NCBI GenBank assembly: GCA_023247255.1
Contig: JAHFGV010000005.1
Location: 6,067-70,066, forward strand
DNA: 64,000 nt
Source of the DNA: Candidatus Omnitrophota bacterium
GTDB taxonomy: Bacteria > Omnitrophota > Gorgyraeia > Aquiviventales > Aquiviventaceae
Direction: 5' to 3'
Positions 14,161 to 15,823 of the stretch are shown here, one piece after another; the stretch's first letter is position 1, and every line of letters begins with the position of its first letter. The position numbers were made by a program, and so were the translations under genes. Under the pieces are notes generated by a model that was not told the origin of the DNA, did not search any database, and saw only the letters and a program-made list of their open reading frames with translations.

Positions 14161-15060
14161 ATGGCTTCCTTGCGTCAACTCCGGCAACGCATCAAGAGCG
14201 TTCAAAATAGCTCGCAGATCATGCGGGCGATGCAATTGGTTTCCGCCTCAAAGCTCAAGCGCACGCAGGTGAAACTCCTTCGCTCTCGCGAGGTTATGCA
14301 GTTTCTCGATGATCTACTCCAGCGCGTACTGGCGGCATCTGCCGATCTGTCGCACCCTTTATGCGTCTCGCGCAAGGAAGGCCCTTGTGCCCTGGTTCTG
14401 TTTACATCGGACGCCGGCTTGAGCGGCTCTTACAACACCCGTCTGATTCAATTAGCCGAGGCGCACTTAAGGCGGGACAGTCTATCTCCGACGCAGCTTT
14501 ATTTCATCGGAAAGAAAGGCTACCGTTATTTCACCAAGCGAGGCTTTGCAGCTACGCAGGCCTATACGGATTTGGCGGGCCGGTTTGAGCCGAAAAAGAC
14601 TCTACCCATCGCCCAGGATTTGATGGACCGTTTTCTTTCCGGAAAACTCGCCGCCATCGAGTTCCTCTACTGCCGATTTGTCTCCGCCGCCGTTTATCAT
14701 CCGACTATCGTTTCATGGCTTCCCATCCAATTCAGCAGACAGCACGTAGCAGACAGCACACAGAAAATCAGCAATCAGCGCTCAACGATCAGTGAACCGA
14801 CGGAGTATATCTTCGAGCCATCCCCTCAAGCCATCTTTGAGGATTTGCTGCCGCGCTGGGCGATGGCTAAGTTTCAATGTATTCTGCTTGAGGCTTTTAC
14901 CTCCGAGCACAGCGCCCGCATGATCGCCATGAAAAACGCCACGGAAAACGCGCAAGAAATCCTCAAGACCCTGACGATGCAGCGCAACAAAATCCGCCAA
15001 GCATCCATCACCAAGGAACTGAGCGAAATCGTCGGCACCGCGGAAGCCCTCAAGGAGTGA
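14161..15060 (+). CDS. atpG: F1 ATP synthase subunit gamma
   Basis: ATG 14161 gives MASLRQLRQRIKSVQNSSQIMRAMQLVSASKL. C-terminus reads ITKELSEIVGTAEAL. Confidence 0.9.
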   Translation: MASLRQLRQRIKSVQNSSQIMRAMQLVSASKLKRTQVKLLRSREVMQFLDDLLQRVLAASADLSHPLCVSRKEGPCALVLFTSDAGLSGSYNTRLIQLAEAHLRRDSLSPTQLYFIGKKGYRYFTKRGFAATQAYTDLAGRFEPKKTLPIAQDLMDRFLSGKLAAIEFLYCRFVSAAVYHPTIVSWLPIQFSRQHVADSTQKISNQRSTISEPTEYIFEPSPQAIFEDLLPRWAMAKFQCILLEAFTSEHSARMIAMKNATENAQEILKTLTMQRNKIRQASITKELSEIVGTAEALKE

Positions 15061-15064
15061 GCCG

Positions 15065-15093
15065 TTGACAGGCGTCAAGAAGCAAGGTATCCT
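15065..15093 (+). promoter_or_regulatory. sigma70-like promoter candidate of the TA cassette
   Basis: TTGACA (15065-15070), 17-nt spacer, TATCCT (15088-15093). Begins 5 nt after the atpG stop. Confidence 0.35.
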
Positions 15094-15131
15094 TTTTTAT
15101 GGATTATCCAGAAGAAAGGAGGTGCGGTACG

Positions 15132-15392
15132 ATGACCAAGGGACTGGTGGCGCCGATATCCTCCAAGGGGCAGGTGACACTCCCAAAAGGTGTGCGCGAG
15201 CTCCTTCACGTAGAGCGTGGCGACTATATCCGCTTTGAGCCAAAGGTTGACGGAGTATGGGTCACAAAAATCCGGCTTGAGCCAGAGGGGTTCTCTGAGA
15301 ATGAGTGGAAGACCCTTGAGCGTTTAGCGCGTCAGAAAGGTAAGCGATACACCGATGCAAAGGCCTTTCTCAAAGATCTCGAAGCGCTCTGA
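15132..15392 (+). CDS. AbrB/SpoVT-family antitoxin
   Basis: ATG 15132 follows AAGGAGG. SpoVT/AbrB looped-hinge motif SSKGQVTLPKGVRELL. Confidence 0.7.
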   Translation: MTKGLVAPISSKGQVTLPKGVRELLHVERGDYIRFEPKVDGVWVTKIRLEPEGFSENEWKTLERLARQKGKRYTDAKAFLKDLEAL

Positions 15393-15401
15393 TGCGTTCT
15401 G

Positions 15402-15680
15402 ATGCGTTATGAGCGCAAGCCATCCTTTAGCCGGTCTCTGCGACGTTTGCCCCCTGATCGGAAGGTACGCATCAAAGATGCGATTCGCAACCTTGTGATC
15501 TTCCTCGAAACCAAACAGCAGCCGCATGGGCTTGGCTTAAAACGTCTGCGAGCAGACTACTGGCAGGTGCGGGCAGGATTGGGGGATCGGGTTATCTTCC
15601 GACTGGTCGATGACCTCATTGAGTTTGTGATTGTTGGGAGTCATGATGAGATCCAACGGTTTCTACGTCATTCCGTTTGA
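15402..15680 (+). CDS. RelE/ParE-superfamily toxin
   Basis: 92 aa with YWQVRAGLGDRVIFRLVDDLIEFVIVGSHDE, which fits the RelE/ParE fold pattern. Paired with the upstream antitoxin. Confidence 0.6.
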   Translation: MRYERKPSFSRSLRRLPPDRKVRIKDAIRNLVIFLETKQQPHGLGLKRLRADYWQVRAGLGDRVIFRLVDDLIEFVIVGSHDEIQRFLRHSV

Positions 15681-15710
15681 ATCGTCGGCACGGCCGAGGC
15701 CCTCAAGTGA
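15680..15710 (+). repeat. duplicate of the atpG 3' end
   Basis: AATCGTCGGCACGGCCGAGGCCCTCAAGTGA matches 15027-15060. It would encode IVGTAEALK*, with only synonymous differences from the atpG end. Confidence 0.75.
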
Positions 15711-15724
15711 CATGAAGCCTAAGT

Positions 15725-15803
15725 GAGGGGCACGGGGAATGGAGTACGGGGAGTGGGAAGACAGGTTTTTTTCCCGCCCCTTGTCTCCCGCCCCCCGCCC
15801 TTT
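15725..15803. repeat. GC-rich element, copy T
   Basis: G-arm 15725-15765, T7 run, C-arm 15771-15803. The reverse complement of the C-arm matches the G-arm of copy K (GGGGYGGGAGAC..GGGGCG). Confidence 0.55.
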
Positions 15804-15823
15804 GTGATTACGGAGAGTACAGA

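What the first reader, a model, noticed from the sequence alone, without database searches (positions are those of the whole stretch)
15027..15823. Toxin-antitoxin cassette inserted between atpG and atpD, flanked by a duplicated atpG 3' end
atpG and atpD are normally adjacent. Here they are 763 bp apart. The gap holds an AbrB/SpoVT antitoxin and a RelE/ParE-like toxin behind their own TTGACA-17-TATCCT promoter. The last ~31 nt of atpG (15027-15060) are repeated immediately after the toxin stop (15680-15710). That second copy would still encode IVGTAEALK*, with only synonymous differences (ACC/ACG, GCG/GCC, GAA/GAG). This looks like an insertion or recombination scar in which the original gene end was displaced. 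A copy of the GC-rich palindromic element follows at 15725-15803. As a result, the stoichiometric F1 genes are separated by an addiction module.
Basis: partly seen in the sequence, partly recalled or inferred. Interest (0 to 1): 0.65.

Follow-up and report, generated by a model that had tools for sequence, protein, structure and literature searches.

The report
Toxin-antitoxin pair inside ATP synthase operon
A small toxin-antitoxin gene pair really does sit between two ATP synthase genes, next to a displaced spare copy of the upstream gene's last 31 bases, but the pair is an old resident of this spot in a whole group of uncultured Omnitrophota bacteria, not a one-off recent insertion.

Summary
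atpG (14161-15060) and atpD (15824-17239) are 763 nt apart. The gap holds a TTGACA-17-TATCCT promoter, an AbrB/MazE-fold antitoxin (15132-15392), a RelE-fold toxin (15402-15680), a 31-nt second copy of the atpG tip (15680-15710, reads IVGTAEALK*) and a G/C-rich hairpin.

Comparison changes the reading. In all 10 other lineages whose context I could fetch, toxin homologues of 68-77% identity lie between atpG and atpD, behind the same promoter. Synonymous sites are saturated and pN/pS is about 0.2-0.35. The pair is therefore an old, selected resident of this junction in an Omnitrophota clade. Its presence is patchy among relatives, and other small genes occupy the same junction elsewhere.

The displaced tip is younger than the pair. 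Of 120 gamma homologues, 119 end as the remnant does (no residue after the EAL-x position) and only the window's working end is ALKE*. Displaced tips of 44 and 14 nt occur in two other lineages and none in 14 toxin-antitoxin-free relatives.

My best reading is a scar of one-sided recombination between alleles with and without the pair. The direction and mechanism are inferred. The pair is a new member of a known kind, and interest is moderate.

The parts
14161..15060 (+). atpG (F1 gamma subunit). The functional end is ...SEIVGTAEALKE*, with a one-codon extension not seen in any other homologue.
   Evidence: PF00231 E=2e-78. The ATG at 14161 matches the MASLRQ start of homologues. C-termini of 120 homologues were compared.
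15027..15054 (+). Upstream (functional) copy of the 28-nt direct repeat, the atpG tip.
   Evidence: the repeat finder D2/D4. Alignment score 41 against a shuffle maximum of 24.
15065..15093 (+). Promoter of the toxin-antitoxin pair: -35 TTGACA, 17-nt spacer, -10 TATCCT.
   Evidence: Consensus scan matches 10 of 12 positions. The -35 and -10 elements and their spacing are conserved in 10 lineages although synonymous sites are saturated.
15080..15098 (+). Operator-like palindrome over the -10 element (AAGCAAGGTATCCTTTTTT). The consensus in relatives is AAGTAAGaTATCCTTACTT, and the right arm is degenerate in the window.
   Evidence: Alignment A2 and upstream sequences. Its function as an operator is inferred.
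15132..15392 (+). Antitoxin of 86 aa with an AbrB/SpoVT/MazE-type N-terminal DNA-binding domain. RBS AGGAGG at 15118-15123.
   Evidence: PF04014 25.8 bits (cut-off 24.7). TIGR01439 32.9 bits (cut-off 28.3). Gene calls of 86 aa in L081 and L082. pN/pS 0.19-0.36.
15389..15408 (+). Exact 10-bp tandem duplication (CTGATGCGTT x2). It separates the antitoxin stop (15390-15392) from the toxin start (15402) and creates a 6-codon mini-ORF (15392-15412).
   Evidence: Read from the sequence. All 9 relatives examined for this junction have the stop and start overlapping as TGATG or TAATG.
15402..15680 (+). Toxin of 92 aa with a RelE/ParE-superfamily fold, closest to the RelE, YafQ and YoeB mRNA endonucleases.
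   Evidence: PF05016 19 bits, below the cut-off of 23. AlphaFold model pLDDT 90.9. Foldseek hits on PDB: 3bpq_B, 4mmj, 2a6r and others. Family alignment A1. pN/pS 0.21-0.29.
15680..15710 (+). Displaced atpG tip (pseudo 3' end) reading IVGTAEALK*. It starts on the last base of the toxin stop codon, in frame with the toxin.
   Evidence: It is of ancestral type. Its 27-nt core matches the window's own atpG tip at 24 of 27 positions, and matches the tips of L165, L008 and L084 equally well.
15725..15803 (+). G-rich/C-rich low-complexity hairpin in the native-type atpG-atpD spacer. It is not a canonical intrinsic terminator.
   Evidence: Fold of -46.9 kcal/mol, z = -2.4. No terminator call. Relatives without the pair (L002, L003) have similar hairpins at the same place.
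15824..17239 (+). atpD (F1 beta subunit).
   Evidence: PF00006, PF02874 and PF22919.

Best explanation
**What it is.** The gap holds a working-looking type II toxin-antitoxin operon. It consists of a sigma-70 promoter with a palindromic operator, an AbrB/MazE-fold antitoxin, and a RelE-fold toxin that is probably a ribosome-dependent mRNA endonuclease.

This operon is not a newcomer. It has lived between atpG and atpD, co-oriented with and embedded in the atp operon, since before the radiation of a clade of Omnitrophota. It has been lost from, or gained by, individual lineages. The junction behaves like a small variable islet between two very conserved genes. Other lineages carry a small membrane protein, secreted proteins or a different toxin-antitoxin-like pair there.

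**The 31-nt second atpG tip.** This is a younger scar. Everything from 15680 rightwards (atpG tip ending K*, then hairpin, RBS and atpD) has the architecture of an allele without the pair. It was joined directly behind the toxin by a recombination event that was homologous on one side and illegitimate on the other.

I favour an incoming allele without the pair. It would be anchored in atpD, with its left end forced to join behind the toxin, because clean replacement would delete an addictive module. The mirror-image event is not excluded. In that case the pair arrives together with a foreign atpG tip, anchored in atpG.

**Shown.** The anatomy, the homology and fold, the conserved location and promoter, purifying selection, the patchy distribution, the ancestral type of the remnant, and remnants in three lineages.

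**Inferred.** Toxicity and neutralisation, autoregulation, the recombination mechanism and its direction, and any role of addiction.

**Confidence.** About 0.9 for a toxin-antitoxin pair that is a long-standing resident of this junction. About 0.5 for the one-sided recombination scar. The overall figure reflects both.
For: **Identity of the pair.**

**Conserved location.** Ten further lineages have been seen: L164, L165, L166/167/168, L169/170, L173, L174/175, L176, L177 and L178. In those whose contig reaches atpG and/or atpD, the pair lies between the two genes. The order is always antitoxin then toxin.

**Age and selection.**
- pS is 0.71-0.98 and pN is 0.15-0.30 against the window's pair.
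- The promoter and operator are conserved.
- In L178 the toxin stop overlaps the atpD start (ATGGCTGA). In L173 and L177 the gap is only 9-11 nt.

**Patchy distribution.** A clade with 97% bootstrap support mixes L164 and L174, which carry the pair, with L003 and L092, which lack it.

**Other cargo at the same junction.**
- L093 has an ORF of 220 aa.
- L165, L170, L174 and L176 have a homologous membrane ORF.
- L166 has secreted ORFs.
- L099 has a pair containing DUF2283.

**Remnant is ancestral-type and undecayed.** Of 120 gamma proteins, 119 end like the remnant and only the window's ends KE*. All 9 codons of the remnant encode the consensus.

**Remnant is as diverged from its own tip as another lineage's tip would be.**
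- It shares 6 of 9 codons with the window's own tip. The average between lineages corresponds to about 4.7 of 9 (identical-codon fraction 0.53).
- Its core matches the tips of three other lineages as well as its own, at 24 of 27 positions.

**Remnants recur.** Tips of different length (31, 44 and 14 nt) each start at the toxin stop and run into native downstream sequence.

**Relatives without the pair.** They have a single tip and the same layout of stop, hairpin and atpD.

**Live recombination at this tip.** Contig L081 has 7 mismatches in 15000-15021 and none in 15022-16347.

[quoted passage not shown] Variable islets between conserved genes are described as Neisseria minimal mobile elements (PMC3787668).
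Against: - No close relative is available. The nearest gamma is 66% identical. No empty site or donor can be shown, and the direction of the event is unresolved.
- Only three differences separate the two copies. The 'all synonymous' argument has limited power. My rough estimate is p of about 0.02 if all changes hit an unconstrained remnant, rising to about 0.26 if half of them hit the constrained functional copy.
- The trees of the pair and of the housekeeping genes are nearly star-like. Vertical descent with losses cannot be separated from ancient transfers.
- Why the joint lies exactly at the toxin stop in all three remnant-bearing lineages is explained only by argument: toxin and atpD are immediately adjacent in the compact alleles.
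- The 14-nt remnant in L170 is only marginally significant on its own (score 23, shuffle maximum 24).
- Toxicity, autoregulation and any addiction effect are untested.
Confidence: 0.55

Rival explanations
1. A discrete mobile cassette, consisting of an atpG-tip homology, the promoter, the antitoxin and the toxin (about 653 bp, 15027-15679), integrated into the atpG tip. It did so by site-specific or Campbell-type single-crossover recombination. It restored atpG with its own tip (KE*) and pushed the original tip (K*) downstream, in the manner of attL and attR.
For: - Direct repeats flank exactly this unit.
- The left copy is the derived one and the right copy is ancestral.
- The L081 breakpoint at about 15022 coincides with the start of the repeat.
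- The 49%-identical homologue P0027 lies next to a phage-type integrase.
- A tRNA-Asp island in the same window shows the classical partial-target duplication.
Against: - No recombinase lies in or near the unit.
- Eight of the 11 lineages that carry the pair lack any repeat. The three remnants differ in length (14, 31 and 44 nt), which does not fit a fixed att core.
- The pairs in different lineages are all at least 23% diverged in protein sequence, with saturated pS. No recent spread is visible.
- The toxin has no match on plasmids or phages.
- L081 stays identical far beyond the cassette, 640 nt into atpD.
Confidence: 0.2
2. The event was purely intragenomic. The pair was already in place. 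Replication slippage, or a small duplication or repair event, copied this genome's own atpG tip to the position behind the toxin. The three synonymous differences and the GAG indel arose afterwards by chance.
For: - The repeat is short and lies only 653 nt from its source.
- An exact 10-bp tandem duplication at 15389-15408 shows that slippage occurs in this very cassette.
- With only 3 substitutions, an all-synonymous pattern has an appreciable chance probability (up to about 0.26 by my estimate).
Against: - The remnant carries the ancestral K* end while the source carries KE*. This requires a later indel in the functional gene.
- There are no nonsynonymous or frame-breaking changes in an unselected copy, even though the copies differ at 3 of 9 codons. 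That is close to the average divergence between lineages.
- The remnant is continuous with a spacer typical of alleles without the pair.
- The same kind of remnant appears independently in L165 and L170.
Confidence: 0.15
3. The second tip is kept by selection because it has a function. It could be a cis-element needed in front of the downstream gene for processing, translation or stability. Alternatively it could act as a read-through extension of the toxin, since it lies in frame after the toxin's TGA.
For: - The remnant is undecayed.
- It is in frame with the toxin in the window and in L170.
- In L165 and L170 it keeps the native distance to the next ORF.
Against: - Synonymous sites of the atpG tip are not more conserved than those of the preceding 50 codons (0.53 against 0.61; Mann-Whitney p = 0.93). 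There is therefore no sign of a nucleotide-level element.
- Eight of the 11 lineages that carry the pair do without it.
- The L165 copy is out of frame and decayed, at 33 of 44 positions.
- In the window, 113 nt and a strong hairpin separate it from atpD.
Confidence: 0.07
4. The structure is an assembly or chimera artefact of a metagenome-assembled genome.
For: - The source is evidently a MAG, since the toxin's longest contig is an 83-kb NCBI record.
- Contigs from other samples break near 15000-15007.
Against: - L081 and L082 span both repeat copies. L083 spans the right junction. Identity is 99.4-100% in independent samples and with different assemblers.
- A 28-nt imperfect repeat is too short to mislead assemblers using k = 31-141.
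Confidence: 0.02

Closest known systems
Type II toxin-antitoxin systems with a RelE/ParE-superfamily toxin and an AbrB/SpoVT-fold antitoxin (for example PrlF-YhaV; RelBE, DinJ-YafQ and YefM-YoeB on the toxin side)
   Same: - Two small co-oriented genes with the antitoxin first and stop and start overlapping in relatives.
- An AbrB-type DNA-binding N-terminus in the antitoxin.
- A RelE/YafQ/YoeB-like toxin fold.
- A promoter overlapped by a palindrome.
   Different: - The toxin is below the Pfam cut-off and has no NCBIfam or PDB sequence match.
- It belongs to an uncurated family of about 380 clusters at 50% identity.
- The combination of a short RelE-like toxin with an AbrB antitoxin is a shuffled pairing. 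YhaV is much larger (from my own knowledge).
- The catalytic residues were not mapped.
- The location is fixed inside an essential operon across a clade. It is not on a mobile element.
Minimal mobile elements of Neisseria (Saunders and Snyder 2002; described in PMC3787668)
   Same: - Gene content varies between the same two conserved flanking genes among relatives.
- The region contains no mobility genes.
- Exchange is attributed to homologous recombination in the flanks.
   Different: - Here the flanks are two genes of one essential operon.
- The lineages are very divergent (gamma about 60-66% identical).
- Natural transformation is unknown for these uncultured bacteria.
- Exchange is inferred from patchiness and from one breakpoint (L081). 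It has not been demonstrated.
Displaced ('orphaned') 3' ends created by homology-facilitated illegitimate recombination in T6SS effector-immunity, Rhs and CDI loci (PMC5361080)
   Same: - An incoming module joins through one conserved anchor.
- The previous 3' end is shifted downstream.
- This leaves a truncated copy of the gene end as a scar.
   Different: - The displaced piece here is only 14-44 nt of a housekeeping gene. It is not a toxin C-terminal domain with an immunity gene.
- There is one scar, not an array.
- The direction of the event is unresolved.
Integrative elements that duplicate the 3' end of their target gene (attL/attR at tRNA or protein genes)
   Same: - An imperfect direct repeat of the target's 3' end flanks the insert.
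- The target gene stays intact through the copy supplied on one side.
   Different: - There is no integrase.
- Repeat length varies among lineages and most lineages have no repeat.
- The insert is only 653 bp.
- The window's own tRNA-Asp island (21069-23842) is a better example of that class.

Membership tests
Type II toxin-antitoxin system | Two small adjacent co-oriented genes, antitoxin upstream, tightly linked or overlapping | tested here: met
   Antitoxin 15132-15392 and toxin 15402-15680. Stop and start overlap as TGATG or TAATG in all 9 relatives examined for this junction. In the window a 10-bp tandem duplication separates them.
Type II toxin-antitoxin system | Antitoxin with a recognised DNA-binding domain (AbrB/SpoVT/MazE type) | tested here: met
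   PF04014 25.8 bits, above the cut-off of 24.7. TIGR01439 32.9 bits, above the cut-off of 28.3.
RelE/ParE toxin superfamily | Sequence match to curated family models at their thresholds | tested here: not met
   PF05016 scores 19.0 bits, below the gathering score of 23. No NCBIfam hit. No PDB sequence hit even with a family profile. More distant family members give only sub-threshold ParE and YafQ hits.
RelE/ParE toxin superfamily | RelE-type fold (N-terminal helices packed on an antiparallel sheet) | tested here: met
   AlphaFold model with pLDDT 90.9 and pTM 0.80. The top 40 Foldseek PDB hits are RelE, YafQ, YoeB, HigB and the H. pylori toxins HP0892 and HP0894, with probability 1.0 and TM 0.6-0.7. 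ParE ranks lower.
RelE/ParE toxin superfamily | Catalytic or mRNA-binding residues of ribosome-dependent RNases | tested here: inconclusive
   Conserved basic and His residues in the family (K47, R48, R57, R63, R67, H81, R86) are compatible with this function. They were not superposed on known active sites.
Type II toxin-antitoxin system | Toxin inhibits growth and antitoxin neutralises it; the antitoxin or the complex represses the promoter | not testable with these tools
   Only indirect evidence is available: purifying selection on both genes and a conserved promoter with a palindrome.
Site-specific integrative element (attL/attR) | Recombinase encoded in or next to the element | tested here: not met
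   The 653-bp unit holds only the two toxin-antitoxin genes. The neighbours are nuo and atp genes, a CitMHS transporter and tRNA-Val.
Site-specific integrative element (attL/attR) | Flanking direct repeats of constant core at every insertion | tested here: not met
   Repeats occur in 3 of 11 lineages, with lengths of 31, 44 and 14 nt.
Minimal-mobile-element-like islet | Different gene content between the same conserved flanking genes in relatives, without mobility genes | tested here: met
   The junction is empty, or holds the pair alone, the pair with a membrane ORF, the pair with secreted ORFs, an ORF of 220 aa, or a DUF2283 pair.
Minimal-mobile-element-like islet | Exchange by homologous recombination in the flanks | tested here: inconclusive
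   Presence of the pair is patchy within a clade with 97% bootstrap support. L081 has a sharp breakpoint in the atpG tip. No donor and recipient pair is available.
Integron gene cassette | attC recombination site and a nearby integron integrase | not tested
   No dedicated attC search was made. No tyrosine-recombinase family appeared in the Pfam scans of the large flanking ORFs I submitted. The hairpin at 15725-15803 also occurs in the spacers of relatives without the pair, so it is not specific to the cassette.

The most novel reading that the evidence does not exclude
The pair may be more than a passenger.

First, it may have been built into the atp operon. It has a conserved internal, autoregulated promoter directly upstream of atpD and atpC, and in some lineages the toxin stop is translationally coupled to the atpD start. 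Beta and epsilon subunit expression and growth arrest would then be wired together.

Second, its addictive property may actively block replacement of the atp allele by incoming DNA from relatives without the pair. Such recombination would be forced to resolve illegitimately behind the toxin, leaving displaced atpG tips as recurrent scars. That would be a natural record of a toxin-antitoxin module policing homologous recombination at an essential locus.
Probability: 0.15. Interest if true: 0.65.

Novelty: new member of a known kind. Interest (0 to 1): 0.4.

Why it matters
Chromosomal toxin-antitoxin pairs are usually viewed as transient, island-borne passengers. Here one family has stayed in a single slot, between the gamma and beta subunit genes of the F1 ATPase. 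It has done so through a radiation deep enough to saturate synonymous sites, with its promoter intact and sometimes translationally coupled to atpD.

This gives a clean natural system for three questions:
- whether placement between two essential, highly conserved genes stabilises a selfish module;
- whether the module supplies an internal promoter to the operon;
- whether addiction shapes the outcome of recombination.

The displaced gene tips are small, datable scars of such events. The practical value is modest. The organisms are uncultured Omnitrophota, and nothing here departs from the known biology of toxin-antitoxin systems or of recombination.

Tried and rejected
- **Palindromic element as a repeat family.** A search with the 27-mer and up to 3 mismatches found only the element itself. 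Alignment with the 480-556 element shows compositional similarity, not homology.
- **Close relatives or an empty site.** The GTDB scan, the JGI metagenome scan and the 5.8-billion-protein search all stop at 66% gamma identity or less. No empty site or donor is available.
- **Clean phylogenetic test of vertical descent against transfer.** The trees are star-like and the Mantel test is non-significant (r = -0.25, p = 0.84). A first bootstrap script timed out.
- **Nucleotide-level constraint on the atpG tip.** This could have explained retention of the remnant but was rejected.
- **Toxin on plasmids or phages.** No match.
- **Sequence-based PDB and NCBIfam assignment of the toxin.** Nothing was found. 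Only the fold comparison worked.
- **Second copy of the cassette in the window.** None. The other toxin-antitoxin pair in the window (23124-23637) is unrelated.
- **Terminator function of the hairpin.** No canonical terminator was called.
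Full report
**1. What is in the sequence**

The window carries a core chromosomal stretch: pyrF, nuoJ/L/M/N, then atpB-E-F-H-A-G, the finding, atpD-C, a CitMHS transporter and tRNA-Val.

- **Flanking genes.** atpG runs from 14161 to 15060 and ends ...SEIVGTAEALKE*. atpD starts at 15824.
- **Promoter.** The spacer begins, 4 nt after the atpG stop, with TTGACA-17-TATCCT at 15065-15093 (10 of 12 consensus positions).
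- **Antitoxin.** AGGAGG at 15118-15123 precedes an 86-aa ORF from the ATG at 15132 to 15392. Its N-terminus passes the curated thresholds for the AbrB/MazE DNA-binding domain (PF04014 25.8 bits against 24.7; TIGR01439 32.9 bits against 28.3).
- **Toxin.** A 92-aa ORF follows at 15402-15680. By sequence it reaches only a sub-threshold ParE_toxin score (19 bits against 23). It has no NCBIfam or PDB sequence match, even with a family profile. An AlphaFold model built on 27 homologues is confident (pLDDT 90.9, pTM 0.80). Its best structural neighbours are RelE, YafQ, YoeB and HigB (Foldseek probability 1.0, TM 0.65-0.70). ParE ranks lower.
- **Second atpG tip.** On the last base of the toxin's TGA begins AATCGTCGGCACGGCCGAGGCCCTCAAGTGA (15680-15710). 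It matches 15027-15054 at 25 of 28 positions, with score 41 against a maximum of 24 in 300 shuffles. It reads IVGTAEALK* with three synonymous third-position differences.
- **Hairpin.** A G-rich/C-rich hairpin at 15725-15803 (-46.9 kcal/mol, z = -2.4) and a short RBS region precede atpD.

Independent contigs from other samples reproduce both junctions at 99.4-100% identity (L081, L082, L083). The structure is therefore not an assembly artefact.

**2. Who the organism is, and the normal junction**

The nearest gamma subunits, at 59-66% identity, come from Omnitrophota MAGs. Some of these are labelled Planctomycetales.

In 13 of 14 in-group relatives without the toxin-antitoxin pair, atpG is followed by atpD after anything from an overlap to about 130 nt. 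Several have a low-complexity hairpin in the spacer, as the window has after the remnant (L002, L003). The fourteenth, L093, has a 220-aa ORF there instead. None of the 14 has a second atpG tip within 900 nt downstream.

Of 120 gamma homologues, 119 stop right after the EAL-x position, as the remnant does. Of these, 94 end exactly EIVGTAEALK. Only the window's protein has the extra E. The downstream copy is thus of the ancestral type, and the working end is the derived one.

**3. The pair is an old resident of this junction**

The toxin has only 27 homologues in the 5.8-billion-protein collection. I fetched the context of every homologue I could, covering 68-77% toxin identity. This gave ten further lineages: L164, L165, L166/167/168, L169/170, L173, L174/175, L176, L177 and L178.

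- In each, the same 86/87-aa antitoxin and 91/92-aa toxin are present. Wherever the contig reaches atpG and/or atpD, the pair lies between those genes.
- Upstream of each lies the same promoter, with a conserved palindrome across the -10 element (AAGTAAGaTATCCTTACTT).
- Against the window's genes, pS is 0.71-0.98, which is saturated, and pN is 0.15-0.30. Both genes have therefore been kept under purifying selection for a long time.
- Integration can be extreme. In L178, the window's nearest relative, the toxin stop overlaps the atpD start (ATGGCTGA). In L173 and L177 the gap is 9-11 nt.
- Only the 49%-identical outlier P0027 sits elsewhere, next to a phage-type integrase in a Nitrospirae MAG.
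- The toxin has no match on plasmids or phages.
- A full HMM scan shows that the clade belongs to a wider, uncurated family of about 380 clusters at 50% identity, with only weak ParE and YafQ signals.

**4. The junction is a variable islet**

Presence of the pair is patchy. A clade with 97% bootstrap support in an atpG+atpD tree joins two lineages that carry the pair (L164, L174) with two that lack it (L003, L092). The other lineages with the pair fall outside that clade.

Other cargo occupies the same slot:
- a small membrane protein, homologous in L165, L170, L174 and L176;
- secreted proteins (L166, L093);
- in a more distant relative (L099), a different pair whose second gene is DUF2283.

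No mobility gene accompanies any of these. This matches the description of minimal mobile elements, in which gene content varies between fixed conserved flanking genes and is exchanged through the flanks (PMC3787668).

The tree of the pair itself is unresolved, and its distances do not correlate with atpD distances. Vertical descent with losses cannot be separated from ancient transfers. No two sampled pairs are closer than 23% protein divergence, so no recent spread is visible.

**5. The displaced tip is younger than the pair**

If the remnant dated from the original insertion it would be randomised, because synonymous sites of the neighbouring genes are saturated. Instead all nine codons and the stop are consensus.

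- It shares 6 of 9 codons with the resident tip. This is close to the average between tips of different lineages (identical-codon fraction 0.53, about 4.7 of 9).
- Its 27-nt core is as close to the tips of L165, L008 and L084 (24 of 27) as to its own.
- The tip carries no special nucleotide constraint that could preserve it (0.53 against 0.61 for the preceding 50 codons; p = 0.93).

Two other lineages have the same kind of scar at other stages. L165 has 44 nt at 33 of 44 identity, including nonsynonymous decay. L170 has 14 nt at 13 of 14 identity, which is marginal on its own. Both begin at the toxin stop codon and run into the native downstream sequence. Eight lineages have none.

So the scars are recurrent, of different ages and lengths, and always abut the toxin. 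The toxin's last 2-4 residues are hypervariable. In L178 they are read out of the atpD start region. The right edge of the conserved unit therefore lies inside the toxin's tail.

**6. Most likely history and mechanism (inferred)**

From 15680 rightwards the window looks like an allele without the pair: tip ending K*, hairpin, RBS, atpD. Leftwards it is a resident allele with the pair, whose atpG has its own peculiarity (KE*).

The simplest way to join them is recombination that is homologous on one side and illegitimate on the other. This mechanism has been proposed for displaced 3' ends in T6SS and Rhs loci (PMC5361080).

I favour an incoming allele without the pair, anchored in atpD, for three reasons:
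- A clean double crossover would delete an addictive module.
- In compact alleles the only dispensable place for the left joint is the toxin tail, which explains why scars abut the toxin stop.
- The scar length would then simply reflect where the incoming strand ended.

The mirror event is not excluded. There the pair arrives with a foreign tip, anchored in atpG.

That recombination with very divergent DNA happens exactly here is shown by contig L081. It has 7 mismatches in 15000-15021 (one A/S replacement, the rest synonymous) and then none over 15022-16347.

**Rivals**
- **Site-specific cassette.** There is no recombinase, the repeats are of variable length or absent, and no recent spread is seen.
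- **In-situ duplication.** It needs a later indel in the working gene and chance synonymy. My estimate for the chance synonymy is p of about 0.02-0.26.
- **Functional second tip.** There is no nucleotide constraint and most lineages lack it.
- **Artefact.** Excluded by the independent contigs.

**7. How the module probably works (inferred from family knowledge)**

The AbrB-fold antitoxin would bind the palindrome and repress the promoter. Its C-terminal part would neutralise the RelE-fold toxin, which would cleave mRNA on the ribosome when freed.

Because the pair is co-oriented inside the operon, it is presumably also transcribed by read-through from the atp promoter. Its own promoter can feed atpD and atpC.

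Two features peculiar to the window suggest drift towards lower toxin output:
- The operator's right arm is degenerate (AAGCAAGGTATCCTTTTTT).
- An exact 10-bp tandem duplication (CTGATGCGTT x2, 15389-15408) breaks the ancestral TGATG stop-start overlap. It places a 6-codon decoy ORF at the coupled start.

**8. Comparison, novelty and verdict**

By fold and architecture this is a type II toxin-antitoxin system that pairs a RelE/ParE-superfamily toxin with an AbrB-type antitoxin. It is a new subfamily that curated sequence models do not capture.

The displaced tip has known analogues in illegitimate-recombination scars and in att duplications. The variable junction has analogues in minimal mobile elements. 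A full-text search found no report of a toxin-antitoxin pair between atpG and atpD.

The 'insertion' is ancient and clade-wide. The repeat is a later scar, and its mechanism remains an inference. The pair is a new member of a known kind, and interest is moderate (0.4).

Noticed in passing
window 15389-15412: An exact 10-bp tandem duplication (CTGATGCGTT x2) lies between the antitoxin stop and the toxin start. It replaces the TGATG or TAATG overlap seen in all 9 relatives examined. It also creates a 6-codon mini-ORF (MRSDAL*) at the coupled start site, which probably lowers toxin translation.
   Followed up: partly
window 21069-23842: A 38-nt copy (95% identical) of the 3' half of tRNA-Asp at 21069-21106 lies 2.7 kb upstream of the intact tRNA-Asp (23769-23842). 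Between them are a DDE_Tnp_4 transposase (21135-22136), a 177-aa membrane protein (22279-22812) and a second, unrelated toxin-antitoxin pair: an RHH antitoxin (23124-23366) and a ParE/RelE toxin (23359-23637; PF05016 28.5 bits). This is a classical target-duplication island.
   Followed up: partly
window 480-556, 11783-11899, 14034-14122, 19284-19360; also L001-L003, L174: Intergenic spacers carry long imperfect hairpins built from low-complexity motifs of several 'flavours': GGGGAC/GTCCCC, ATTGTCGATT and AGCAGACAGC. Relatives have them at the same positions with different sequences. I know of no named family for them.
   Followed up: no
window 14125-14150 and 14732-14768: A 26-nt stretch just upstream of and overlapping the atpG start is 85% complementary to a low-complexity stretch inside the atpG coding region (CAGCAGACAGCACGTAGCAGACAGC). 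That stretch encodes an insertion (QHVADSTQKISNQRS) which is shorter or absent in several relatives, so half of a hairpin element appears to sit inside the gene.
   Followed up: no
L081 positions 1-22 (window 15000-15021): A contig from another sample has 7 of 22 mismatches in the atpG body. It is then 100% identical for 1326 nt through the pair, the remnant and 520 nt of atpD. This is a sharp recombination breakpoint at the start of the repeat. Two independent contigs also end at 15000-15007.
   Followed up: partly
window 15678-15710; L170 1252-1266: The displaced tip is in frame with the toxin. Read-through of the toxin's TGA would append IVGTAEALK. The L170 remnant is also in frame and the L165 remnant is not.
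   Followed up: no
L178 737-750: In the window's nearest relative carrying the pair, the toxin stop overlaps the atpD start codon (ATGGCTGA). The toxin and the F1 beta subunit are therefore translationally coupled.
   Followed up: no
L164 3377-3778: One relative has a four-helix gene of the 23S-rRNA-IVP/bAvd type (PF05635, E=1.6e-36) inserted between atpA and atpG. A second junction of the atp operon therefore accepts small cargo in this clade.
   Followed up: no
L099 3281-3736: A more distant relative has a different two-gene module between atpG and atpD. It consists of a 79-aa ORF and a DUF2283 protein (E=8e-19), which from memory is a DUF4258/DUF2283-type toxin-antitoxin candidate. This is independent use of the same junction.
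   Followed up: partly
window 2645-2703 and 40158-40216: A 59-nt direct repeat at 93% identity, with copies 37.5 kb apart. One copy ends just inside the start of the nuoJ ORF (2690). Its nature is unknown.
   Followed up: no
window 53228-53385: A molybdenum cofactor riboswitch (RF01055; 61.6 bits against a gathering score of 36) lies on the + strand.
   Followed up: no
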